Part shown: positions 3-10,403 of the stretch, piece after piece
Layout: each line of letters starts with the position of its first letter
How positions within the stretch are numbered: position 1 is the first letter of the stretch
Assembly: GCA_965602395.1 (NCBI GenBank)
Contig: CBFCYW010000005.1
Span: 5,486 to 69,485 of the forward strand
DNA from: an uncultured Chromatiales bacterium
GTDB taxonomy: Bacteria; Pseudomonadota; Gammaproteobacteria; CBFCYW01
Length of the DNA: 64,000 nt
Direction of reading: 5' to 3'
Notes under the pieces: generated by a model
What the model was told of the DNA's origin: nothing
The model's database searches: none
What the model saw: only the letters and a program-made list of their open reading frames with translations
Made by a program: the position numbers and the translations under genes

Positions 3-272
3 GAAGCGCTGCTCGAACCGCTGTCGCGCCAGCCCTGGGATGGCCCCATCGAGGCGGCCGGTGCCCGGCAGGCGAGCGTCGCCGTGGTGTTTCGTTTCGA
101 CGGTCTCGGCGAAGCGCAGAGCCACCTGCATTTCGACGCCCGCGGGCGGCCGGTGCAGATTCGCGACGGCGTCGCCCATCGCCTGCTCGGCGGCAGGATC
201 GGCCTGCGCTTCGCCGGTCACCGGCGCATCATCCGCGTGCTGCCGCTCAGCGGCCGGGTGGTGCTGCAGTGA
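3..272 (+). CDS. C-terminal fragment of an upstream gene (5' end outside window). Last gene before the pilus minor-pilin genes; function unknown.
   Basis: Open frame from window edge to TGA at 270-272; GC3-rich codons; its stop overlaps the GTG start of the next gene (GTGA), typical operon coupling. No recognisable motif. Confidence 0.3.
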   Translation, partial: EALLEPLSRQPWDGPIEAAGARQASVAVVFRFDGLGEAQSHLHFDARGRPVQIRDGVAHRLLGGRIGLRFAGHRRIIRVLPLSGRVVLQ

Positions 273-739
273 GCGCGCATCGCCAGCGTGGTCTCGGCTA
301 CATCGAAGTGATCCTCGCCGCGGCGCTGCTGGCGCTGGCGCTGGTGCCGGCGCTGGATGCGCTGCGCAGCGCGTTGTCAATCGCTGCGCACAGCGCCGAT
401 CTGCAGCAGCGCCAGCTGGCGCGGCGGGCGCGGATGGAGGCGGTGCTCGCCGAGCCCTTTGGCGCGCTGCTCGCCGAGGCCGCGTTGCACAACGACGCGC
501 GCGCCGCGAGCCGCTGGTCCGACCCGCCGGGCAGCGCGGGGCGCCTGCTGGTGCAGCTGCAGCTGCACGACTTCGGCAACCTCGATGGCGACGGCGACTC
601 CGCGACCATCGCCGACCCGGATCTGGATGGCGACGCCAACCCCTACAGCGGCGATGACAGCCCGGTGGACGCCCTGCGCGTGCGCGTGCTGGACGAAGAC
701 GGCGGCGCTGTGCTGGACGCCCTGAGCCTGCGTCGATGA
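269..739 (+). CDS. Type IV pilus minor pilin-like protein (prepilin-type N-terminal domain)
   Basis: 156 aa. N-terminus RGLGYIEVILAAALLALALV resembles the prepilin cleavage/methylation motif (G-F/Y-x-x-I/L-E followed by a hydrophobic helix). Sits in an operon with other pseudopilins. Confidence 0.5.
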   Translation: MSAHRQRGLGYIEVILAAALLALALVPALDALRSALSIAAHSADLQQRQLARRARMEAVLAEPFGALLAEAALHNDARAASRWSDPPGSAGRLLVQLQLHDFGNLDGDGDSATIADPDLDGDANPYSGDDSPVDALRVRVLDEDGGAVLDALSLRR

Positions 740-757
740 GCCTGCGTCAATGAGCCT

Positions 758-1762
758 GTGCCGATGAACCGCGCGCGTCGTGTCAGTGGCCGTCGCCAGC
801 GCGGCCTCAGTCTGCTGGAGCTGCTCATCGCCACGCTCATCGGCGGCCTGCTGATGGTCGCCGTGGACGGCGTCATCGGCGCCGCCCTGGCGCTGCGCGA
901 GGAGGCCGGTGCGCAGCATCGTTTGGCGCGCGCCGGCGCCTTCGCCATGCAGCGCATGCTCGACGCCGCGGCGCACAGTCCCGGGCTGATCCTGCCGCTG
1001 CGCGACAAGCCCGACACCGCCATCGCCGAGCACATCCGCGATGGTCGCCAGCCACCAACCCGGATCGGCAGCTATTTCGGCATGCCGCTGTACGCCAGCG
1101 GCGTGCTGGCACTGCGCCTGCCGCGCCATCTCGACCTCGATGCCGACGGCATCGCCGACGCCGACAACGACGGCGACGGCCGCTTCGATGAAGACCTGCC
1201 CGCCGACGCCAGCAACGACAACGACAACGGCGTGCGCAACATCGACGACAACGACAACGGCTTTATCGACGCCGCCACCTGGATGCGCGCGGACGACGAC
1301 GAGGACGCCAGCCAGAGCGAGGACCCGATCAACGGCATCGACGACGACGGCGACAACAATTTCGACGAGGACCCCGGTGCGGACATGAACGGCGACGGCG
1401 CGCCCGGCGTGCGCGGCATCGATGACGATGGCGACGGTGCGGTCGATGAGGGCGACGCGGCCGATGACGACGAGGATGGCCGCGTCGATGAAGACTGGCT
1501 CGACCCGCTGGTGTTCTACCTGCGCGATGGCCGGCTCCTCGAGCAGACGCCACTGCCCTGGGATGCCGACGGCGATGGCGATATCGATGGTCGCGACACC
1601 GCCACCGAAGTCCTGCTGGAGGGTGTGACGCGCTTTCGCGTCGAGCGCGTGGCGCTGCCCGGCGGTCGCGACGAGCTGATCGACATTCTGCTCGAATACC
1701 GTGTTGATGGGGTTCGCAGCCACAGTTTGAGCGCCAGCGTGCGCATCGGCGGTGGCCTGTGA
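758..1762 (+). CDS. Pseudopilin (PilW/MshO-like) carrying an extended aspartate-rich Ca-binding-loop-like repeat region
   Basis: 334 aa. N-terminus RGLSLLELLIATLIGGLLMVAV is a prepilin-type motif. Residues about 125-285 hold more than 10 DxDxDG / DxDxNG loops (DADGIAD, DNDGDGRFDED, DDDGDNNFDED, DADGDGDIDGRD). GTG start at 758, ATG alternative at 764. Confidence 0.6.
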   Translation: MPMNRARRVSGRRQRGLSLLELLIATLIGGLLMVAVDGVIGAALALREEAGAQHRLARAGAFAMQRMLDAAAHSPGLILPLRDKPDTAIAEHIRDGRQPPTRIGSYFGMPLYASGVLALRLPRHLDLDADGIADADNDGDGRFDEDLPADASNDNDNGVRNIDDNDNGFIDAATWMRADDDEDASQSEDPINGIDDDGDNNFDEDPGADMNGDGAPGVRGIDDDGDGAVDEGDAADDDEDGRVDEDWLDPLVFYLRDGRLLEQTPLPWDADGDGDIDGRDTATEVLLEGVTRFRVERVALPGGRDELIDILLEYRVDGVRSHSLSASVRIGGGL

Positions 1763-4700
1763 GCGGCGCCGCCGATACCCGCGGACAGCGCGTGGCCGCC
1801 GCCAGCCGCGGCGCGCACAGGCGCCGTGCAGATGGCTTCGTGCTGATCTCGGTGCTGCTGGCGATCAGCCTGCTGGCGGCGCTGGTCGCGGCCTTGAACC
1901 TGCAGGCCGGCGGCAACCTGTCGGGCGATGCCGAGCTGCGCCGCCAGCAGCTCGACTATCTGTTGCAGGCCGGCGCCGGCCATGCCCAGTGGCTGCTGGC
2001 CAACGCCGGCTGCGCCGCTTACGCGCTGCCCGAGCAGCGCTTCGGCACCGGCAGTTACAGCGCCAGCTTCAGCCCGCAGCAGGGCTCGCCGGTGCGCTTG
2101 CAGATCAAAGCCGCGCTGGACGACGGCCCGAGCGGCCAATTGCTGCGCGATGCGATGCCCGCCTATCAGCCCGGCGAGCGCCTGCTGCTCGACCCCGGGG
2201 CGGCGCTCAAAGAGGCCTACATCCACGAGTCGAACAGCGACCACAACCACGGCGATAGCGATCACCTGCGGCTGGACGACGACGATTCGCGCTACTACGC
2301 GCTGATCGAATTCGATCTCGACGCGCTGCCCGAGCAGAGCCACGTCAGCTCGGCACAGCTCGGTCTGTCGCTGCAATCGCTGGACGGCGATGGCGGTGAG
2401 GATGGCGCGATCACCGCCTATCGCCTGCTGCAGCCGTGGAGCGAGAGCGAGGCCAGTTGGGATCAGGCCGATGATGGCCGCGCCTGGAGCTGGCCGGCGG
2501 CCTACGACGCCGTCGCCCCGGTGGCGCGCGTCGATTTCGCCGGCGCAAGCCCTGGCCAGCGCTACCGCTGGGACATCACCGAACTGCTGCGCGGCTGGCA
2601 CAGCGGGCGCTACCCGAACCACGGTCTGGTGCTGATCGCCAGCGGCGGGATCGACGACGCCCGGTTCGCCAGCGGTGACGCCAAAGACCCGCAGCTGCGC
2701 CCGCGCCTGCAGATCGACCACGCCTGCGAATGCGGCCGCGATTGCGGTCGCCAGTGCGGCGCCGGCAGCTATCGCGACGATTTCGCCGCAGCCAGCTACG
2801 GCAACCACGATGGCGAGCTGAGCTGGGCCGGCGACTGGCGCGAGCGCGACGGTGCCGGCGGCGGCGCCACTGGTGGCGACGTTTACATCGAATCCGGCCG
2901 GCTGCAGCTCAGCGACAACGCCGCCGCTGGCGCCGCGATCGAGCGCGCGCTGGATCTCTCCGCGGCGGCCTACGCGGTGCTCGAAATGGTCGCCGCGCGC
3001 AGCGCCTTCGACGACCCCGGCAGCGATGGCGTGCTGCTGGAGATCTCCGCCGATGGCGGCGGCAGCTGGTCGCTGCTGGAGGATTTTGCCGCCCAGCCGG
3101 CCGGCGCCAGCCTGCGTCGCCGCTACGACATCGGCGCCTGGCGCAGTGCGGATACGCGTCTGCGGCTGCGCGTGCACAGCGGCTACAGCCAGCCCGACGA
3201 GCACTTCAGCGTCGAGCGTCTGCGGGTGCGCACCGCCTGCGCGCCGATCGCCGCACAGTGCGATGCCAACTACCTGCCGGATGCATTCATCGGCGGTTTC
3301 TCCACCGCGGCGCTGAGCGACGGCTGGGGCCTCAGCTATCTGCCCGGCGGCACGCGGCTGTTCGGCGCGGCCGTTCCGGCGGCCGGTGGCTGGCTGCTGG
3401 TCGACAGCGCCGCTGGCCGGCTCTCGATCACCGATTTCGATGGCAATCCGCTTGGCGGGCTGGATGTCTCGCTCGGCAGGCCGACCGGTGCGGCGTGGAT
3501 CGACACCGGCCCCTGGGCCGGGCATCTGGCCGTCGGCGACGAGAGCAGTGCCGGCGTGTATCTGCTGGATGCCGAGGGCCAGATCCGCCACAGCTTCTCC
3601 ACGCTGGCCTTCACCGACCGGCCGCTGGGCATGGATTTCATCTCCAACACCGCCAGTTGGCAGCACGACGGGCTGCTGCTGATCAGCAGCGACCGCGACC
3701 GCGACGGCGCGCCCGCCGGCGGGATTCACATCAGCGATTTCGACGGCCAGCTGCGCCACAGCCGGTATGCCCAGATGCCCGAGAACCCGATCAACGGCGT
3801 CGCCCATCTGCCGGGCAGCGATCTGGCCTTGCTGGTCTCGGGTTCGCGGCTCGGCATGCTGATGGATCTGACGTTCGGGAGCAACGGCAGTTATGCCACC
3901 GGGGATTTCGGCATCACCGCGCCGCGCGGTGTGGACATCGAGCCGGGCCGCTGTGATCAGACCATTCTCGGCGGCGACAGCGCGTGGCTGCGGCGTCTCA
4001 ATCGCGCCTCCGAAACCAGTTATCTGGACCGGCTGATAGGCGCCGGATACAGCGGCAGCGATGGCCGGCTGGACTGGTCGGTTGGCTGGCTGGAGAGCGG
4101 CGAGTCGGACGGCCCGCAGAGCGGCGAGCTGCGCGTGGCGGACAGCGTGCACTGCGCCAGCGGTCGCTGCCTGCGTATCGGCGGCGAGGGCGACGGCACG
4201 GCGCGCGAAATCGGTGCCCGGCAGCTCGGTCGCGCCGCCAATCTGAATACCTCTATCGACCCGACGAGTTCGGCGTGGCTGAGTTTCGAGCTGGCCGCCG
4301 TGGGCAGCGGCGGCGGTCGGCTGGATCTGCAGGTCAGCGACGGCGGCGGCAGCTGGGTCACGCTGGACAGTTTCACGCTCGATGGCAGCCTGCCGGTGGT
4401 GCCGACCCGACAGCAATACGATGTGCTCGATTACGCCAGCAGCGATTTCCAGCTGCGCTTCAGCTTCACCGGCAACCTGCCGGCCACGGGGCTGGAGGCG
4501 CTGTTCATCGACGATGTGGCGATCGACGTCGAATTTTCCACCGCGCCATCGGGCGATGGTGGCGATGACGGCGGTGGCAGCCCCCCGCCCCCCGGCCCCG
4601 ATCCCGGCGCCTGCGTGGGCGACTACGCCGACAACTTCGTCAGCGCCAGCTACAGCAACAGCGACGGCAGCCTGAACTGGGACAAGCGCTGGGTGGAGGT

Positions 4701-5118
4701 GGCCGAGGGCGATGGGCCTTCAGCCGGCGATATCCGCATCGGCAGATACGATGGCCGCAACGTGCTGCGGCTCAAGGACAACGGTGTCGGCAACGGTGAG
4801 GGGATCTACCGACCGGTGGATCTGAGCGGCTACTCCGGCAGCCCGGTGACGCTCGGCTTCGACTACCGGCGCAGCGGCTTCGACAACGCTAATGACTGGG
4901 TAGCGGTGCAGGTGAGTGCTGACGGCGGCGCCAACTGGGATGAACTGCTGCGCCTGTCCGGCCCGGCCAGCGACAGCACGTCGCAGCTCGCCGAGGTCGA
5001 TCTGAGCCGCTACGCCGGCAGCTCCGTGCGGCTGCGGCTGATGACTTCGCCGCGGCTCGGCAATCTCGATGCGCTGCGCCTCGCCGCGCTGCGCATCGTC
5101 ATCGGCGACTGTCCCTAG
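1759..5118 (+). CDS. Large pilus-associated adhesin-like protein (MshQ/PilY1-like) with a PilX/MshP-like pseudopilin N-terminus
   Basis: 1119 aa. GTG start overlaps the upstream stop. N-terminal hydrophobic segment GFVLISVLLAISLLAALVAALN. A Cys-rich stretch (CECGRDCGRQCG), three ~165-aa internal repeats, and a central G/D-rich region with propeller-like repeats. Lies directly upstream of pilM/N/O/P/Q-like genes. Confidence 0.6.
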   Translation: MSGAADTRGQRVAAASRGAHRRRADGFVLISVLLAISLLAALVAALNLQAGGNLSGDAELRRQQLDYLLQAGAGHAQWLLANAGCAAYALPEQRFGTGSYSASFSPQQGSPVRLQIKAALDDGPSGQLLRDAMPAYQPGERLLLDPGAALKEAYIHESNSDHNHGDSDHLRLDDDDSRYYALIEFDLDALPEQSHVSSAQLGLSLQSLDGDGGEDGAITAYRLLQPWSESEASWDQADDGRAWSWPAAYDAVAPVARVDFAGASPGQRYRWDITELLRGWHSGRYPNHGLVLIASGGIDDARFASGDAKDPQLRPRLQIDHACECGRDCGRQCGAGSYRDDFAAASYGNHDGELSWAGDWRERDGAGGGATGGDVYIESGRLQLSDNAAAGAAIERALDLSAAAYAVLEMVAARSAFDDPGSDGVLLEISADGGGSWSLLEDFAAQPAGASLRRRYDIGAWRSADTRLRLRVHSGYSQPDEHFSVERLRVRTACAPIAAQCDANYLPDAFIGGFSTAALSDGWGLSYLPGGTRLFGAAVPAAGGWLLVDSAAGRLSITDFDGNPLGGLDVSLGRPTGAAWIDTGPWAGHLAVGDESSAGVYLLDAEGQIRHSFSTLAFTDRPLGMDFISNTASWQHDGLLLISSDRDRDGAPAGGIHISDFDGQLRHSRYAQMPENPINGVAHLPGSDLALLVSGSRLGMLMDLTFGSNGSYATGDFGITAPRGVDIEPGRCDQTILGGDSAWLRRLNRASETSYLDRLIGAGYSGSDGRLDWSVGWLESGESDGPQSGELRVADSVHCASGRCLRIGGEGDGTAREIGARQLGRAANLNTSIDPTSSAWLSFELAAVGSGGGRLDLQVSDGGGSWVTLDSFTLDGSLPVVPTRQQYDVLDYASSDFQLRFSFTGNLPATGLEALFIDDVAIDVEFSTAPSGDGGDDGGGSPPPPGPDPGACVGDYADNFVSASYSNSDGSLNWDKRWVEVAEGDGPSAGDIRIGRYDGRNVLRLKDNGVGNGEGIYRPVDLSGYSGSPVTLGFDYRRSGFDNANDWVAVQVSADGGANWDELLRLSGPASDSTSQLAEVDLSRYAGSSVRLRLMTSPRLGNLDALRLAALRIVIGDCP

Positions 5119-5174: not shown

Positions 5175-6524
5175 GTGACGCCGCAGCTAAAGAAAGGCCC
5201 GTCTATTCCGCTATTTCGGGCAGTCAATCGCCGGATCGATCAGCTCCCGATGCCACCCCTCGCAGACAAACTCTCCGCGCCCGGCGGGCTCTTCGAAGCC
5301 CGCTTCGGGCGCTCGTTCGGCCGGCTGCCAGGCGGGTCGTCCGGGAGGTTGGCAGGCCTGCTGCCCGGCGCGGCGAAGTGGGCAAGCGAGCGCTCCCCCG
5401 TGCCGGGCGAGGAGGCGCGGCACGGCGGCGACGTCGAGATCGGGCCGATCGGCTTCGAGCTGGGCGAGCGCGAACTGCACCTGCTGCAATTGCAGCGCAG
5501 CGGCGGCGAGCTGCGCATCCGCGCCGCGAGCAGCTGCGCTTATCCCTGTGCGCGCGATGAGCTGTGCGCCGCGCCGCGCCGCCTGCGCCGTTTCGTTGCC
5601 GGCGCGCTGGCGGCGCAGCCGTTTAGCGGGCGCTGCGTCGTCGCCTGCACGCCGGTGCACAGCCTGCGCCTGATCATGCTCGAATACACCCTCGACCCGG
5701 GCGAGGACGAGCCGGCACTGATTCTGCGCCAGACGCTGGAGCGGATCGGTGGCTCGCCGGCCGATTGGGTGATCGATTACCTGCCGCTGCGCCGCCGCGT
5801 GCGCGAGGAGCGCAAGCGCGCCGCGCTGGTGGCGGTGGTGCCACACGCCGCCCAGGTAGCCCATCTGGAGCTGTTGCGTCGCGCCGGCCTGCGCGTGCAG
5901 GCGCTGGAGATCGGCCCGCTGGCGATCCGCCGTCTGGTGGTCGCCAGCGGCGCCGCCGAGCGCGGTGAATACCACAACGTGCTGGTCATCAACATCGGCC
6001 CCGACAAAGGCTATCTGACCGTGATTTCCGGGCGTCGCCTGCTGCTCGATCGCGAGATCGCCTTCGGCGAGGCGCAGCTGCTGGCGCGCCTCGGCGCCGC
6101 GCTGCAGATGGACGAGGGCGAAGGCCGGCGCGCGCTGCGGGACTTCGGCTTCGCGGCCCCCGGCGATGCCGATTGCCGCAGCGCGGGCGGGGCGACCGCC
6201 GGGGAGATCGTCGCCGCGCTCACCGAGATCACCCGCCCGGCGTTGCACGAGCTTCGCCGCGAAGTGGACAAGGTGCTGCTCTACCTCGCCGCGCAACTGC
6301 ATGGCGCCGGCGTCGATTCGGTGTATCTGCTCGGCTGTGCGGCGCACTGGCCCGGTGCCTGCGAGTTGTTTGGCGGGCTGCTGCAGCGACCGGTGACGCT
6401 GCTCGATCCGTTCGCGGGGTTTGCCGCCGGCGCCGGTGCGGCGCCCGTCGACGGGCACCCAGCGAGCACCGGCATGGCGCTGGCCGCCGGCTGCGCGCTG
6501 CGCGGGCTGCTGCCGGATGACTGA
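5175..6524 (+). CDS. Type IV pilus assembly protein PilM/MshI-like (actin-like ATPase fold)
   Basis: 449 aa. Position in the pilM-N-O-P-secretin series; the stop overlaps the next gene's start. The central region has the glycine-rich actin-like fold pattern typical of PilM. GTG start; the true start is uncertain. Confidence 0.55.
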   Translation: MTPQLKKGPSIPLFRAVNRRIDQLPMPPLADKLSAPGGLFEARFGRSFGRLPGGSSGRLAGLLPGAAKWASERSPVPGEEARHGGDVEIGPIGFELGERELHLLQLQRSGGELRIRAASSCAYPCARDELCAAPRRLRRFVAGALAAQPFSGRCVVACTPVHSLRLIMLEYTLDPGEDEPALILRQTLERIGGSPADWVIDYLPLRRRVREERKRAALVAVVPHAAQVAHLELLRRAGLRVQALEIGPLAIRRLVVASGAAERGEYHNVLVINIGPDKGYLTVISGRRLLLDREIAFGEAQLLARLGAALQMDEGEGRRALRDFGFAAPGDADCRSAGGATAGEIVAALTEITRPALHELRREVDKVLLYLAAQLHGAGVDSVYLLGCAAHWPGACELFGGLLQRPVTLLDPFAGFAAGAGAAPVDGHPASTGMALAAGCALRGLLPDD

Positions 6525-7176
6525 AATGAACCTGATTCCCGCCGACTACAGTCGGCGCCTGAGCCTGCTGCGCAGCCTGCGCCGCTTCGCCGCGCTGTAC
6601 CTGCTGCTGGCGCTGCTGCTCACCGGCGGGCGCCTGGCGCTGTCGCACGGCATCGAGCAGCACGGTGCGCAGATCGCCGCCGCCAACCGGGCGCGCGCCG
6701 AGCTCTCCCGACAGCGCAGCGAACTGGCCGAGCTGCGCCGCCGCGACGAGCTGCTGCAGGGCTACCTCGATGCCCTCGACGGCCTGCGCGGCGGCACTGC
6801 GGCGCAGGATGTGTTGCGCCTGGTCGATCGCGCGCTGAACCCCGGCGTGTGGTTCAGCGAGTGGCGCTTCTCCCGCGCCGGCGAGCGCGCCGATGCCGAC
6901 AGCGGCGCGGTGCGCGCCGGCTATTTCATCGTTCTGCCCGCGTCGCCGGGCGATGACGAGAGCACGGCCTGGCGTCTGCGCAGCCGCATGCAATTGCGTG
7001 CCCACGCCCTCGATCACGCGGCGATGGCCGACTTCATGCGCCGTCTCGGCGAGCAGCCGCGGGTCGCCAGCGTGCGCCTGCTGAGCAGTCAGCGCGGTGC
7101 GCGCGGCGCGGCGCTGGATTTCGATCTGGCGCTGGTGCTGCGCCCGCCGGCAGCGGCTGCGGGGGCTGGCTGGTGA
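6517..7176 (+). CDS. PilN/MshI2-like pilus assembly protein
   Basis: Starts MTEMNLIPADYSRR (PilN proteins typically begin MxxINLLP), then a single TM helix and a coiled coil. The ATG overlaps the upstream stop by 8 nt. The longer ORF from 6421 was rejected as a start. Confidence 0.6.
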   Translation: MTEMNLIPADYSRRLSLLRSLRRFAALYLLLALLLTGGRLALSHGIEQHGAQIAAANRARAELSRQRSELAELRRRDELLQGYLDALDGLRGGTAAQDVLRLVDRALNPGVWFSEWRFSRAGERADADSGAVRAGYFIVLPASPGDDESTAWRLRSRMQLRAHALDHAAMADFMRRLGEQPRVASVRLLSSQRGARGAALDFDLALVLRPPAAAAGAGW

Positions 7177-7790
7177 ACGCGCTGCTGGATCAGATATCGC
7201 CGCGCTCGCTGTGGCTGGCGATGGGCGCCTTGTTCGGGCTGAGCCTGCTCGGCAGCTATCTGTACGTCTATCGCGATGCCCTCGGCGACTACCTGCGGCT
7301 GCGCGCAGCCAACGCGGCAGCGCTGGTCGAGCCGGGCGCTGCCGCCGCGTCGTCCGGCGCGGACACTATCGAAGCCGAGCTGGCGGCGGCGCACAGCAGA
7401 CTGCTGGCGCGACGCGAAGCCTTGCTCGGCAGCGGTGCCGGGCTGCCGCCGGAGGCGGTGGTGCCGTTTGTGATCGGCGAGCTGGACCAGCTGTCGCGCC
7501 GCCACCGGGTGCGCTTTGACGGCGTTACCCCGGGCGAGCTGCGGCGCGTCATGCAATTTGAGGAGCAATCCTTCGAGATCAGCGTGCGCGGCGATTATTT
7601 CAATCTCTACGCCTGGCTGCGCGATGTGGAGCGCGCGCTGCGGCCGATGCTGGTCAAGCACTTCGAGCTGCGCCCGCTGGCTGACAGCGATGGTGGCGTG
7701 GTGATGCGTCTGCAGGTGGTGTCGTATCGCCTGCCCGATGAGTTGTCTGCGGCGCTGACCGGAATTGCCGAGAGCGGTGCGCAGCGATGA
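7173..7790 (+). CDS. PilO/MshJ-like pilus assembly protein
   Basis: 205 aa. GTGA overlap with the upstream gene. One N-terminal TM helix, then a coiled-coil domain; the order is conserved with PilN and PilP. Confidence 0.5.
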   Translation: MNALLDQISPRSLWLAMGALFGLSLLGSYLYVYRDALGDYLRLRAANAAALVEPGAAAASSGADTIEAELAAAHSRLLARREALLGSGAGLPPEAVVPFVIGELDQLSRRHRVRFDGVTPGELRRVMQFEEQSFEISVRGDYFNLYAWLRDVERALRPMLVKHFELRPLADSDGGVVMRLQVVSYRLPDELSAALTGIAESGAQR

Positions 7791-7815
7791 CAGCGGTAGC
7801 GATGGAGTTGTGGCC

Positions 7816-8244
7816 ATGAGATCGCTGCCGGCGCCAGCACTGCCGCTATCGCTGGCACTGATGCTGTTGGCATCGCCGGGGCCGTTGGCTGCGGCCGCAC
7901 AGACCGCGCCCGACGATTCGCCTGGCGAGGCGCGCGGCGACCCGGGTGGTGGCCTGGAAAGTGATCCGGCGGCGCTGCGCCACAATCCGTTTCAGCAGCC
8001 CGCGACACCCGCCGAGCTGCCTGCGCCGCGCGCTCCGGCGGGCGGCGGCGGGATGCGCATCGGTGACGATTGGCAGCCCGAATTGCGCGCGGTGCTACAG
8101 GCCGGCGATGCCTCGCTGGCCAATGTCGACGGTCAGGTACTGGCGGTCGGTGAGCGCATCCGCGGCTACCGGCTGATTCAAGTGGGCGAGCGCAGCGCCG
8201 TGCTGGCGCGCGGCGCCCGGCGGCTCGAACTGAGCCTGGAGTAG
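7816..8244 (+). CDS. PilP/MshK-like pilus assembly lipoprotein or periplasmic protein
   Basis: ATG at 7816 gives MRSLPAPALPLSLALMLLASPGPLAAAAQ (signal peptide). The C-terminal RGYRLIQVGERSAVL beta-domain is PilP-like. Lies immediately before the secretin. Confidence 0.5.
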   Translation: MRSLPAPALPLSLALMLLASPGPLAAAAQTAPDDSPGEARGDPGGGLESDPAALRHNPFQQPATPAELPAPRAPAGGGGMRIGDDWQPELRAVLQAGDASLANVDGQVLAVGERIRGYRLIQVGERSAVLARGARRLELSLE

Positions 8245-8247
8245 ATT

Positions 8248-9783
8248 ATGTCGAGATCGCATCCCCGCCCGTACCGCCGCCCGTACCGCCGCCCGCATCC
8301 CCGCCGCTTGCCGGCGCTGCTGGCCGTCGCCTGCTTCGGGCTCGCTTTGGCCGCAGCGATGCCCAGCGCGGCGCGCGCCGCCGATGATGTCCCCGCGGCA
8401 GCGACGCCAGCCGGCGATCAGCGCAGCATCACCATCGCCTTTCGCGGCACGCCGATCGCCGAGGCCTACGAGATGCTCTCGCGCCTGGGGCGGGTCAACA
8501 TCCTGCTCGGCAGCGGTGTGGACGCGCAGGTCACCGCCAATCTGTACGCCGTCTCCGCGGAGGAAGCGGTGGTGATGATCGCCGACGCCGCCGGCTACGC
8601 GGTGGAGCGCCGCGGCGACAGTTATCTGGTGCTGGATCGCGAACAGCTGGGCCTGGATGCGGTCACCGGGCACACCGCGGTGCGCAGTTTCAAGGTGCAG
8701 TACGCCGATCCGGGCAAGGTGGCCGGGGCGCTGGAGAATTACCTGTCGCGCTACGGCGAGATTACCGTGCTGGAGGCGCGCAAGCTGCTGGTGATCTCCG
8801 ACCGCCCGGAGTTTCTGCAGCGCATCGCCCGGGTGCTGGAAAACATCGATGTGCAGCCGCGGCAGATCCTCATCGAGGCGAAGATTCTCGAAGTGATCCT
8901 GCGCGACGATGAGACCTTCGGCGTCGATTGGGCGGCGCGCGGCGGCGATGGCGATCTGGGCACCAGCGGCTTTTCCGACATCGGTGGCACGGGGCTGTTT
9001 CTCAACTACCTGACCGATGATCTGGATCTGTTTCTGAAGGCGCTCAGCGAGAATGGTCGGGTGCGCACCCTGTCCACGCCCAAGCTGCTGGTGCTGGAGG
9101 ATCAGGATGCCGAGGTGGTGATCGGCGACCGCATCGGCTATCGCGTCACCACCACTGCCAATCAGGTCACCACGGAGAGCATCGAGTTCCTCGATTCGGG
9201 GGTGATTCTCAAGGTGCGCGCGGCGGTCGACAACCAGCGCCGGATCATGCTCGATGTGCACCCGGAGGTCAGCACCGGCGTGGTCAGCGATGGCATTCCC
9301 TCGTTGACCACCACCGAGGTCACCACGCAGATGATCGCCGCCGATGGCCAGCCGATCTTTATCGGTGGGCTGATCAAGCGCAGCAGCAGCGAGAGTCGTT
9401 CGGCGGTGCCCGGTCTCGGCGATCTGCCGCTGGTCGGCGGCCTGTTTTCGCGCCGCGAGGACAGCGCGCTGGTCACCGAGACGGTGGTGCTGATCACCCC
9501 GCATCTGGTCGAGCCGGGTGCGGCGCCGCAAATGCGCGATGCACGGCGGCGGGTGGATCGGCTGACTATCGATCTGCCGCCGCTGCTGGTGCCGGAGGAT
9601 ACCGGCAGCGCGCCGCTGCAGCTGGGTGTGCCGCCCGGTGGCGAGGGTGCCGGCATGTCGCGCGGCGCGACGGCTGGCGACACTGCCGCTGCGACCGGGC
9701 TCGCTGCGGCCAGTGCCGCTGGCGATGGCCGGGACGATGGCTTTCCCTGGCCGCTGCTGTTGCTGTTTGCGCTGTTGCTATAG
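8248..9783 (+). CDS. Type IV pilus / MSHA secretin (PilQ/MshL family, GspD superfamily)
   Basis: 511 aa with a signal peptide. Secretin C-domain blocks: VRTLSTPKLLVLEDQDAEVVIGDRIGY, GGLIKRSSSESRSAVPGLGDLPLVGGLF and VVLITPHLV. Confidence 0.8.
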   Translation: MSRSHPRPYRRPYRRPHPRRLPALLAVACFGLALAAAMPSAARAADDVPAAATPAGDQRSITIAFRGTPIAEAYEMLSRLGRVNILLGSGVDAQVTANLYAVSAEEAVVMIADAAGYAVERRGDSYLVLDREQLGLDAVTGHTAVRSFKVQYADPGKVAGALENYLSRYGEITVLEARKLLVISDRPEFLQRIARVLENIDVQPRQILIEAKILEVILRDDETFGVDWAARGGDGDLGTSGFSDIGGTGLFLNYLTDDLDLFLKALSENGRVRTLSTPKLLVLEDQDAEVVIGDRIGYRVTTTANQVTTESIEFLDSGVILKVRAAVDNQRRIMLDVHPEVSTGVVSDGIPSLTTTEVTTQMIAADGQPIFIGGLIKRSSSESRSAVPGLGDLPLVGGLFSRREDSALVTETVVLITPHLVEPGAAPQMRDARRRVDRLTIDLPPLLVPEDTGSAPLQLGVPPGGEGAGMSRGATAGDTAAATGLAAASAAGDGRDDGFPWPLLLLFALLL

Positions 9784-9794
9784 CCGCCGGATGC

Positions 9795-10403
9795 TTATTC
9801 GCCGCTGCGCACGGCGCGCAGATACTTGGCTCGCGAGTGGCGATTGATGTAGTCGAAACCGTTGCCGAAGTCGACGCTCAGGGGCTTTTCATCCTCGCCG
9901 GAGCTGGCCCAATAGACGCTCTCCCAAGTGTGCGGGAAGTAGGTCTGATCGATCTTGGGAATCTCGTTACCGTCCTGGAGCAGGGTTTTCAGCTCGATGC
10001 GCGTCGGCCCCCGCCAGTCGTCGAAGCCGCACAATTTGTCTTTGTTCAGCTGGTTGATGTAAGTGGCGGTGTCGCAGTCGATGTCGCCGGTGCAGCTGCC
10101 GCCGTCCTGCTCGTTGTAGCGTTCGCGATTGGCGCTCTGCAGCGCCCGCCAGGAATAGGTGTTGTTGACATCGCGCAGGCTGCTGTCGTTGGCTTTGTTT
10201 TCCCACACCAGATCGCTGCCGGCATCCACCACACAGGCCCAGTTGCGCGCACTTTCCGACACTCGCTGGCCGGCGTCGTCGAGCTTGCTGTAGGGCCCTG
10301 CGGCCTGCGCCGACAGGGTGATGCCGAGTAGCAGGCCGGACAGCAGGGTGCGGCTGAGCAGGGGCGGACGTGGGTGCCGATGGGGTTCGTGGCTTGCGAT
10401 CAT
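9795..10403 (-). CDS. Secreted DUF1566-like protein (Lcl C-terminal domain family)
   Basis: 202 aa with a signal peptide. Motifs typical of DUF1566: GQRVSESARNWACVVDAGSDLVWENK, CGFDDWRGPTRIELKTLL and YWASSGEDE...LRAVRSG. Confidence 0.5.
   Translation of the reverse strand: MIASHEPHRHPRPPLLSRTLLSGLLLGITLSAQAAGPYSKLDDAGQRVSESARNWACVVDAGSDLVWENKANDSSLRDVNNTYSWRALQSANRERYNEQDGGSCTGDIDCDTATYINQLNKDKLCGFDDWRGPTRIELKTLLQDGNEIPKIDQTYFPHTWESVYWASSGEDEKPLSVDFGNGFDYINRHSRAKYLRAVRSGE

What the first reader, a model, noticed from the sequence alone, without database searches (positions are those of the whole stretch)
2770..5115. Triplicated ~165-aa domain inside the 1119-aa pilus adhesin-like protein
Three segments align by eye: about nt 2770-3240, 4024-4530 and 4621-5115. 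Each starts with S-Y-x-N-x-DG-x-L-x-W-x(3)-W-x-E and ends with a [RY]-Y-D/x...S-x-x-L-R-[LF] block (RYDIGAWRSADTRLRLRVHSG, QYDVLDYASSDFQLRFSFTG, VDLSRYAGSSVRLRLMTSPRLG). These look like jelly-roll or lectin-like modules. A Cys-rich CxCGxDCGxxCG motif precedes the first. Repeats one and two are separated by a G/D-rich region with propeller-like periodicity. The N-terminus is pseudopilin-like, so the adhesin may be built into the pilus tip (MshQ/PilY1 analogue).
Basis: seen in the sequence. Interest (0 to 1): 0.5.

Follow-up and report, generated by a model that had tools for sequence, protein, structure and literature searches.

The report
Reelin-like domains in pilus-tip protein
A 1,119-residue bacterial protein, encoded where the cap subunit of a type IV pilus-like fibre normally lies, carries three copies of a beta-sandwich module related to those of animal reelin plus a small propeller, and is probably the sticky tip of the fibre; the modules are real but belong to a large, poorly annotated family.

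Summary

The domain is not unique. A profile finds 3,662 protein clusters across many phyla, often with several copies per protein. The three copies are old paralogues, not a recent triplication. Copy 3 is the C-terminal hallmark of a family: 37 of 39 members end with it.

Family layout: pilin-like N-terminus without Glu5, DNRLRE/CBM96 domain, variable middle, C-terminal reelin-like domain. The gene follows GspI-like and GspJ-like pseudopilin genes and precedes pilMNO and a secretin gene. This order holds in at least 15 genomes.

Best reading: a K-type modular minor pilin that caps the fibre and displays binding modules. It is analogous, not homologous, to MshQ or PilY1. Function is inferred, not tested.

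The parts
269..739 (+). GspI-like minor pseudopilin (RG|LGYIE..., Glu at +5)
   Evidence: Weak NCBIfam hits to GspJ/XpsI N-termini. N-terminal sequence read. Homologues lie at the same position in 13 of the 16 related loci.
758..1762 (+). GspJ-like minor pseudopilin (G|LSLLE, Glu at +5) with an Asp-rich insert of seven D-x-[DN]-x-[DN]-G loops
   Evidence: Pfam N_methyl E 4e-6. phmmer E 1e-45 to 1e-87 to the gene upstream of the giant gene in related loci. Asp loops counted.
1759..5118 (+). Whole ORF, 1,119 aa: K-position modular minor-pilin-like protein. Its GTG start overlaps the TGA stop of the J-like gene (GTGA).
1759..1905 (+). Class-III-like signal: basic leader ending in invariant Gly26, then a hydrophobic helix FVLISVLLAISLLAALVAAL; residue +5 is Ser, not Glu
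   Evidence: Family alignment A3: G26 and L29 are invariant, and 0 of 10 members have Glu at +5.
1906..2205 (+). Small conserved head domain (AEAGL-like helix, invariant Cys85, G-S-P-V strand), presumed pilin-like module
   Evidence: Conserved in A3. There is no Pfam, NCBIfam or PDB sequence hit for the window protein. The L012 orthologue hits PilX_N (25.0 bits) and the GspK N-terminus (E 1e-6). The fold was not modelled.
2206..2715 (+). DNRLRE / CBM96 / disaggregatase-repeat domain
   Evidence: NCBIfam NF033679 93.2 bits (cut-off 34). Pfam CBM96 E 3.7e-10. PDB 8wab E 2.8e-6.
2725..2760 (+). Cys motif C-E-C-G-R-D-C-G-R-Q-C-G; C-E-C is invariant in the family
2758..3249 (+). Reelin-like jelly-roll domain 1 (internal type); Asp-box SADGGGSW at aa 430
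   Evidence: Pfam Reelin_subrepeat-B 29.8 bits against a cut-off of 27. Its best relatives are internal copies in other family members.
3268..4008 (+). Five-bladed beta-propeller
4009..4533 (+). Reelin-like jelly-roll domain 2, the most divergent copy; has a C-A-S-G-R-C hairpin insert and Asp-box DGGGSW at aa 861
4534..4608 (+). Gly/Asp/Pro-rich linker
4609..5115 (+). Reelin-like jelly-roll domain 3, the C-terminal hallmark type of the family; Cys952 and Cys1118 lie at its two ends; Asp-box SADGGANW at aa 1053
5175..6524 (+). PilM-like assembly protein
   Evidence: Pfam PilM_2; TIGR01175 E 4e-19.
6520..7176 (+). PilN-like protein (listed ORF starts at 6421; the likely start is MTEMNLIP at about 6520)
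   Evidence: Weak Pfam PilN hit. Conserved position in related loci.
7173..7790 (+). PilO-like protein
   Evidence: Pfam PilO E 4e-4. Conserved position.
7765..8244 (+). ORF in the PilP position, no family hit
8248..9783 (+). Secretin (GspD/PilQ/MshL class)
   Evidence: Pfam Secretin E 1.8e-38; TIGR02517 and TIGR02515 E about 1e-47.

Best explanation
The gene encodes a K-type (GspK/PilX-position) modular minor pilin of a type IV filament machine related to type II secretion systems and type IVa pili.

Proposed mechanism:
1. The N-terminal class-III-like signal and small head domain insert the protein into a tip complex with the I-like and J-like pseudopilins encoded just upstream. Because it lacks Glu5, it would be the apical subunit.
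2. The remaining ~970 residues form a chain of extracellular, disulfide-bonded beta modules: DNRLRE/CBM96-like domain, reelin-like jelly-roll 1, five-bladed propeller, and reelin-like jelly-rolls 2 and 3.
3. The fibre, assembled by PilM/N/O and extruded through the secretin, presents this chain at its tip.
4. The modules most likely bind polymeric ligands such as polysaccharides or surface matrices. This gives multivalent attachment.

The three jelly-rolls are not equivalent. Copy 3 is the conserved C-terminal module that defines the family. Copies 1 and 2 and the propeller belong to a variable middle cassette that differs between relatives (LamG pairs, a YWTD propeller, or extra jelly-rolls).

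Shown: domain boundaries, folds, homologies, synteny and absence of Glu5. Inferred: processing by prepilin peptidase, incorporation at the tip, and ligand binding.
For: Repeats are real and homologous.

Folds:
- The domain profile hits reelin in the PDB at E 2.7e-8.
- 44 of 76 family domains hit Pfam Reelin_subrepeat-B and 22 hit the InhA-like MAM domain.
- The DNRLRE domain scores 93 bits against a cut-off of 34. Its only characterised relative, CBM96, binds alginate (PMC9971899).

Context:
- I-like and J-like pseudopilins with Glu5 lie upstream, with a GTGA start/stop overlap. PilM/N/O and a secretin lie downstream.
- In 16 genome loci a protein with the same N-terminal module lies beside such genes. 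In 13, I-like and J-like genes precede it, and 10 also carry pilM/N/O.
- The complete operon in L012 adds an ATPase closest to the GspE/PilB models, with an MshE-type c-di-GMP motif, plus GspF-, GspG- and GspH-like genes.

K-type features:
- Invariant Gly before the hydrophobic helix, and 0 of 10 members with Glu5.
- The L012 orthologue hits PilX_N (25.0 bits, cut-off 25.5) and the GspK N-terminus (E 1e-6).
- K subunits invariably lack Glu5 and cap the I-J-K complex (PMC9934059, PMC12918778).
- Modular pilins with grafted adhesive or lectin modules are an established class (PMC8179133).

Other: the protein has 12 Cys. Several are placed where they could form intradomain disulfides, as expected for an exported protein.
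Against: - The window protein itself gives no Pfam, NCBIfam or PDB sequence match to GspK, PilX or N_methyl. Only 1 of 10 family N-termini weakly hits PilX_N.
- The pilin fold of aa 50-149 was not modelled.
- The major pilin, ATPase, platform protein and prepilin peptidase are not in the window, because the operon is cut by the left edge.
- No ligand is known for any member of the reelin-like family. Reelin subrepeats act in protein-protein packing rather than as lectins (PMC2716378).
- In R3 of this protein the near-invariant [FIL]-D-[ND] motif of the last strand is replaced by A-A-L, so this copy may have lost a conserved site.
Confidence: 0.6

Rival explanations
1. It caps a secretion-type pseudopilus of a T2SS-like machine. 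The large C-terminal region would work in the periplasm or at the secretin, for example in cargo loading or gating, and would not be an exposed adhesin.
For: In L012 the ATPase, platform protein, major pseudopilin and H subunit score best against the GspE, GspF, GspG and GspH models, and gene order F-G-H-I-J-K matches T2SS operons. T2SS GspK also carries an extra domain of unclear function (PMC8179133).
Against: All those scores are far below the equivalog cut-offs. The machine uses separate PilM/N/O proteins, not GspL/M/C. CBM-, MAM- and reelin-like jelly-rolls, a DNRLRE/CBM96 domain and, in relatives, LamG and YWTD modules are typical extracellular binding modules. A c-di-GMP-binding motif in the ATPase and neighbouring GGDEF/EAL genes resemble attachment pili such as MSHA.
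Confidence: 0.15
2. It is a signal-anchored accessory protein, not a filament subunit. It would be co-expressed with the pilus genes but stay anchored in the inner membrane by an uncleaved N-terminal helix.
For: There is no N_methyl or GspK hit for the window protein. The leader is long (26 aa), and the pilin fold is unverified.
Against: There is an invariant Gly immediately before the helix and the gene always lies directly after the I-like and J-like genes. The start/stop overlap suggests translational coupling. An orthologue matches the PilX_N and GspK N-termini. Lack of Glu5 is exactly what is expected of K subunits.
Confidence: 0.15
3. The three jelly-rolls are structural spacers rather than binding sites. 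As in reelin, their Asp-boxes would glue neighbouring modules into a rigid rod that holds out the real functional module, either the propeller or the DNRLRE domain.
For: In reelin the Asp-boxes mediate inter-module packing (PMC2716378). All three copies keep the Asp-box. An RLD-propeller-RLD cassette recurs in P0017, P0028, P0037 and P0050. The strongest conservation is in an N-terminal Trp-rich segment that looks structural.
Against: The same domain occurs alone after a signal peptide and in up to 8-10 copies in many unrelated surface proteins and subtilases. That pattern fits an autonomous binding module. The nearest non-reelin structural relatives are CBMs and adhesion (MAM, gingipain adhesin) domains. 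This rival overlaps with the best explanation.
Confidence: 0.2
4. The apparent repeats are chance similarity caused by Gly/Asp/Ser/Ala-rich composition in a 70% GC genome.
For: The composition is biased.
Against: z = 14-21 against shuffles. Composition-adjusted BLASTP E values go down to 2e-17. A profile of the three copies retrieves 1,908 proteins at E <= 1e-10. The domain folds with pLDDT 97.
Confidence: 0.01

Closest known systems
Reelin subrepeats (Pfam PF21471 Reelin_subrepeat-B; PDB 2e26, 2ddu, 7lyu)
   Different: There is no A-EGF-B arrangement. Sequence similarity covers only the central third of the domain (profile positions 54-114). The bacterial family has its own conserved N-terminal D-x-F...Y-x-N-x-D-G-x-x-x-W-x3-W-x-E segment. 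Context is a pilus protein, not a secreted animal signalling protein.
MAM domains and carbohydrate-binding modules of the galactose-binding-like superfamily (RPTPmu MAM, InhA-like MAM, CBM16/22/61/29, gingipain cleaved-adhesin domain)
   Different: Sequence identity is 6-15%. No ligand-binding residues can be transferred, and no CBM family model matches the repeats.
Modular type IV pilins (Streptococcus sanguinis PilB with vWA, PilC with Ig + ConA-like lectin; ETEC CofB; Thermus ComZ)
   Same: A pilin-type N-terminus is fused to bulky functional modules that could fit only at the filament tip, and lectin-like modules provide adhesion (PMC8179133, PMC9934059).
   Different: Here the carrier is the Glu5-less K-position subunit of a diderm I-J-K set. 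The cargo is far larger (about 970 aa, five modules). The N_methyl signature used to find modular pilins is not detected.
GspK / PilX / PilK, the apical minor pseudopilin of the H-I-J-K tip complex
   Same: The gene lies directly after the I-like and J-like genes. There is an invariant Gly and hydrophobic helix with no Glu5, and extra domains are grafted on. The L012 orthologue weakly matches the PilX_N and GspK N-termini.
   Different: The window protein shows no significant sequence match to GspK or PilX models or structures. No GspK alpha-domain was detected. The protein is 3-5 times larger.
CpaL/TadG of Tad pili
   Same: A large minor-pilin-like protein (~600 aa) with an N-terminal pilin-like domain, a big middle region dispensable for assembly, and a functionally critical extreme C-terminus (PMC12918778). 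The family here likewise has conserved ends and a variable middle.
   Different: The filament class is different (Tad). No sequence relationship was tested or seen. In this family the C-terminus is an integral strand of a jelly-roll domain, not a free strand.
PilY1/PilC and MshQ tip-associated adhesins
   Same: Similar size, a beta-propeller plus variable binding modules, and an encoding gene next to the minor pilins. A tip-adhesin role is proposed for them too. Some family members (L012) and other RLD proteins (P0003) carry LamG modules.

Membership tests
Reelin subrepeat / PF21471-type jelly-roll | 11-strand beta jelly-roll fold | tested here: met
Reelin subrepeat / PF21471-type jelly-roll | Embedded Asp-box (S/T-x-D/N-x-G-x-x-W) hairpin | tested here: met
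   SADGGGSW (aa 430), (S)DGGGSW (aa 861) and SADGGANW (aa 1053). The motif definition comes from PMC4882317.
Reelin subrepeat / PF21471-type jelly-roll | Score above the Pfam gathering threshold | tested here: inconclusive
   The whole protein scores 29.8 bits against 27, through R1 only. R3 alone gives no hit and R2 has only a weak InhA-like MAM hit. 44 of 76 family domains hit at E <= 0.01.
Reelin subrepeat / PF21471-type jelly-roll | Subrepeat A - EGF - subrepeat B organisation of a reelin repeat | tested here: not met
   No EGF module was found. The copies are separated by a propeller or a Gly/Pro linker.
Reelin subrepeat / PF21471-type jelly-roll | Structural Ca2+ site on the convex face | not testable with these tools
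In R3 the near-invariant [FIL]-D-[ND] motif of the last strand is replaced by A-A-L.
K-type minor pseudopilin (GspK/PilX/PilK) | Class III signal with Gly at -1 and a hydrophobic helix, lacking Glu at +5 | tested here: met
   RRRADG|FVLIS...; G26 is invariant and 0 of 10 family members have Glu5.
K-type minor pseudopilin (GspK/PilX/PilK) | Gene directly follows the I and J minor pseudopilin genes in a filament operon | tested here: met
   This holds in the window and in 13 related genome loci.
K-type minor pseudopilin (GspK/PilX/PilK) | Sequence match to T2SSK / GspK / PilX_N models | tested here: not met
   The window protein has no hit even at E <= 10 on aa 1-150. 1 of 10 family members hits PilX_N at E 0.043. 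The L012 orthologue gives PilX_N 25.0 bits (cut-off 25.5) and NF037980 28.5 bits (cut-off 130).
K-type minor pseudopilin (GspK/PilX/PilK) | Pilin fold of the head domain and assembly with I and J | not tested
No multimer tool was available.
DNRLRE / CBM96 domain | Score above the curated cut-off | tested here: met
   NF033679 scores 93.2 bits against 34, and PF24517 scores 40.3 against 26.
   There is no Laminin_G_3 hit at E <= 0.1.
MshQ | MSHA operon context | tested here: inconclusive
   The secretin scores lower on MshL than on GspD/PilQ, all below the cut-offs. The operon is cut at the left edge of the window.
PilY1/PilC | C-terminal PilY1-type beta-propeller (IPR008707 / PF05567) | tested here: not met
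   There is no Pfam hit. The propeller is internal and five-bladed, and it is nearest to glutaminyl cyclase and YjiK.
Modular pilins (sensu Raynaud et al. 2021) | N-terminal pilin module plus grafted non-pilus functional domains | tested here: inconclusive
   The grafted modules are shown. The pilin signature IPR012902/N_methyl is not detected and the pilin fold was not modelled.

The most novel reading that the evidence does not exclude
Two linked ideas are not excluded.

1. Proteins with this layout (Glu5-less pilin-like N-terminus, DNRLRE domain, swappable middle cassette, invariant C-terminal reelin-like domain ending in C-x-P) may define an undescribed class of self-contained tip adhesins, with the K subunit and the adhesin in one chain. 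They would belong to a c-di-GMP-gated T2SS/T4P-like filament, mainly in uncultured marine and sediment Gammaproteobacteria and Myxococcota. The invariant C-terminal domain would fold back onto the K-like head. That would play the role that the C-terminal strand of PilY1, GspK or CpaL plays in licensing assembly.

2. These abundant bacterial domains may be true homologues of the animal reelin subrepeat.
Probability: 0.2. Interest if true: 0.6.

Novelty: new variant of a known kind. Interest (0 to 1): 0.4.

Why it matters
- It is a concrete example of how type IV filaments gain new binding functions. Here the apical K subunit itself carries a ~970-residue string of binding modules, and no separate PilY1/MshQ-type adhesin gene lies next to it.
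- Searches that rely on the N-methyl pilin motif would miss this family.
- A large family of reelin/MAM-like jelly-roll domains (over 3,600 clusters) in environmental bacteria has no model of its own and no known ligand.
- The conserved-ends, variable-middle layout, together with the recent beta-strand complementation model of tip-complex assembly, gives a testable hypothesis for how such giant subunits are accommodated.
- The finding is not a new principle. Modular pilins and CBM-like adhesion modules are established.

Tried and rejected
- **Word-indexed homologue searches.** The full protein gave only itself and one partial relative. The three-copy profile gave nothing. The 76-sequence profile gave five unnamed or 'hypothetical' proteins. 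The exhaustive profile search was needed.
- **Locating the source contig.** Exact-sequence look-up failed.
- **Names.** Cluster look-up gave no informative names.
- **Genome scans.** The single protein found no relative. A 5-sequence alignment worked.
- **Structure tools.** The afdb50 fold library was unavailable.
- **Self-BLAST.** The whole protein against itself reported only the identity hit. Segment-wise comparison was needed.
- **LamG/MshQ and PilY1 membership.** Considered and rejected: no family hits, and the propeller is of a different type.
- **Recent tandem triplication.** Rejected: each copy is closer to positional counterparts in other proteins.
- **Enzymatic role for the propeller.** The glutaminyl-cyclase-like fold suggested it, but it could not be assessed at 14% identity and is not proposed.
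- **Naming DUF6701/LamG proteins that carry the domain as MshQ.** NCBIfam and the literature gave no support.


Full report
**1. The observation.** The window contains a 1,119-codon ORF at 1759-5118 on the + strand. Segment-wise BLASTP shows three mutually homologous stretches:
- R1, aa 334-497 (nt 2758-3249)
- R2, aa 751-925 (nt 4009-4533)
- R3, aa 951-1119 (nt 4609-5115)

R1-R3 share 36% identity (E 2e-17), R2-R3 30% (E 5e-12) and R1-R2 28% (E 3e-9). Nothing else in the protein matches any repeat better than E 0.3. Smith-Waterman scores lie 14-21 SD above 500 shuffles, none of which came close. The Gly/Asp/Ala-rich composition of this ~70% GC region is therefore not the cause. One small correction: the quoted 'end' blocks are followed by one more strand.

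**2. What the repeated domain is.** Pfam assigns only part of R1 to Reelin_subrepeat-B (29.8 bits, cut-off 27), with weak Asp-box and InhA-like MAM signals. A profile of the three copies, searched against 1.84 billion representative proteins, found 3,662 proteins at E <= 1e-3 and 1,908 at E <= 1e-10. Among the top 150, nearly all carry two to eight copies.

Reelin subrepeats are 11-strand jelly-rolls with an Asp-box and a Ca2+ site, noted for their resemblance to CBMs (PMC4882317; PMC2716378). All three copies here keep the Asp-box. The module is thus a reelin/MAM/CBM-class jelly-roll, not LamG. I call it RLD (reelin-like domain). Its conserved N-terminal Trp-rich segment (D-x-F...N-x-D-G...W...W-x-E) is specific to the bacterial family.

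**3. The rest of the protein.**
- aa 150-319 are a DNRLRE/CBM96/disaggregatase-repeat domain (93 bits against a cut-off of 34). The only characterised CBM96 binds alginate (PMC9971899).
- The 12 cysteines include pairs placed for intradomain disulfides: 799/804 in a hairpin, and 952/1118 at the two ends of R3.

**4. The N-terminus and gene context.** The protein starts with a basic leader ending in Gly26, followed by a 21-residue hydrophobic helix. In ten family members the Gly is invariant, and none has Glu at +5.

The two genes upstream (269-739 and 758-1762) are I-like and J-like pseudopilins with Glu5. The giant ORF's GTG overlaps the J-like stop codon. PilM-, PilN- and PilO-like genes, an unassigned ORF and a secretin gene follow.

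A genome scan with an RLD alignment returned 76 loci. They come from Gammaproteobacteria, Acidobacteriota, Desulfobacterota, Myxococcota, Acidimicrobiia, Planctomycetota, Bacteroidota and Chloroflexota, and almost all are MAGs. Local HMM annotation shows the following:
- 16 loci carry a protein with the same N-terminal module, almost all next to homologous pilus genes.
- In 13 of them I-like and J-like genes precede it.
- 10 of them also have pilM/N/O nearby, and 9 a secretin gene as well.
- These loci are mainly Gammaproteobacteria (Woeseiaceae, Ectothiorhodospiraceae, a tubeworm symbiont) and Myxococcota.

In the Woeseiaceae locus L012 the complete operon reads as follows:
- a GGDEF-EAL gene;
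- an ATPase with a STAS domain and an MshE-type c-di-GMP motif (58.7 bits against 38);
- GspF-, GspG- and GspH-like genes;
- the I-like and J-like genes, then the giant protein;
- pilM/N/O and a secretin gene.

The giant protein of L012 hits PilX_N (25.0 bits against 25.5) and the GspK N-terminus (E 1e-6). Its middle consists of two LamG modules.

The window protein itself has no GspK, PilX or N_methyl hit. K-type membership therefore rests on position and signal features, not on sequence. K subunits are known to lack Glu5 and to cap the I-J-K tip complex (PMC9934059; PMC12918778).

**5. Anatomy of the family and the meaning of 'triplicated'.** Among 39 family members, 37 end with an RLD within 12 residues of the C-terminus. 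The tail is strongly conserved (...T-R-I-R-F-x-T-S-x-x-[LM]-G...F-D-N-[VI]-x-I-x-C-x-P). RLD copy number varies from one to three, and the middle varies: LamG pairs, a YWTD propeller, extra RLDs, or the five-bladed propeller.

All of R3's 15 best matches are C-terminal RLDs. R1 and R2 match mostly internal copies. Each copy scores higher against counterparts in other proteins (about 97-127 bits) than against its sisters (34-61 bits). P0017 has the identical DNRLRE-RLD-propeller-RLD-RLD layout.

The three copies are therefore ancient paralogous subtypes. R3 is the family hallmark. R1, the propeller and R2 form part of a variable cassette. R3 of this protein has lost the near-invariant F-D-N motif.

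**6. How it most likely works.** It is a K-type modular minor pilin that caps a type IV filament and presents a chain of binding modules at the tip, as described in the best explanation. Modular pilins with adhesive vWA or lectin modules are established (PMC8179133, PMC9934059). CpaL of Tad pili is a precedent for a large pilin-like tip subunit with a dispensable middle and a critical C-terminus.

Domain identities, folds, synteny and absence of Glu5 are shown. Processing, tip location and ligand binding are inferred. Rivals are a secretion-type pseudopilus cap, an uncleaved membrane-anchored accessory protein, and RLDs acting as rod-building spacers. All remain possible. Chance similarity is excluded.

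**7. Comparison and novelty.** The domain belongs to a known superfamily and is partly captured by an existing Pfam model, so it is not new. The protein is not an MshQ or PilY1 homologue: it has no LamG, no PilY1 propeller, and a different propeller type. The K-position pilin carrying a DNRLRE domain, a variable cassette and an invariant C-terminal RLD is, as far as the searches here show, an undescribed variant of the modular-pilin theme. Interest is moderate.

Noticed in passing
window 758-1762 (aa ~122-275 of the J-like pseudopilin): The J-like minor pseudopilin carries a ~150-aa Asp-rich insert (17% Asp) with seven D-x-[DN]-x-[DN]-G calcium-loop-like motifs. Homologues in 12 related loci have 3-8 such loops and 12-16% Asp, so the insert is a conserved feature of this filament's tip complex. 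No Pfam family matches it.
   Followed up: partly
window 1759-1762: The GTG start of the giant ORF overlaps the TGA stop of the J-like gene (GTGA). This suggests translational coupling.
   Followed up: no
window 7765-8244: A 159-aa ORF lies between the PilO-like gene and the secretin gene, in the PilP position. It has no Pfam or NCBIfam hit.
   Followed up: no
L012 1-5800 (Woeseiaceae MAG) and L001 7973-9160: In related loci the operon is flanked or interrupted by GGDEF/EAL genes. The L012 assembly ATPase carries a STAS domain and an MshE-type c-di-GMP-binding motif above its cut-off. The filament is therefore probably c-di-GMP controlled. The corresponding part of the operon lies beyond the left edge of the window.
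   Followed up: partly
P0012, P0014, P0003, P0019, P0006 (representative proteins): The same reelin-like domain occurs in multiple copies ahead of subtilase (Peptidase_S8) domains, ahead of LamG + DUF6701 in large proteins, and in SdrD_B/Cna_B surface proteins. It also occurs directly after signal peptides. It is a general extracellular module, not a pilus-specific one.
   Followed up: partly
window 5095-5115 (last residues of R3) against family C-termini: Family members end in a strongly conserved ...F-D-N-[VI]-x-I-x-C-x-P tail. The window protein keeps the terminal C-P but has A-A-L in place of F-D-N.
   Followed up: no
window 9795-10403 (-): A 202-aa ORF with a signal-peptide-like N-terminus lies immediately downstream of the secretin gene on the opposite strand. 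It was not characterised.
   Followed up: no
window 60001-62000: GC content rises locally to 0.76, against about 0.65-0.71 elsewhere. The rise overlaps a histidine-kinase ORF at 60005-62293. In this high-GC window several long ORFs on the opposite strand of real genes gave no family hits and are probably spurious.
   Followed up: no
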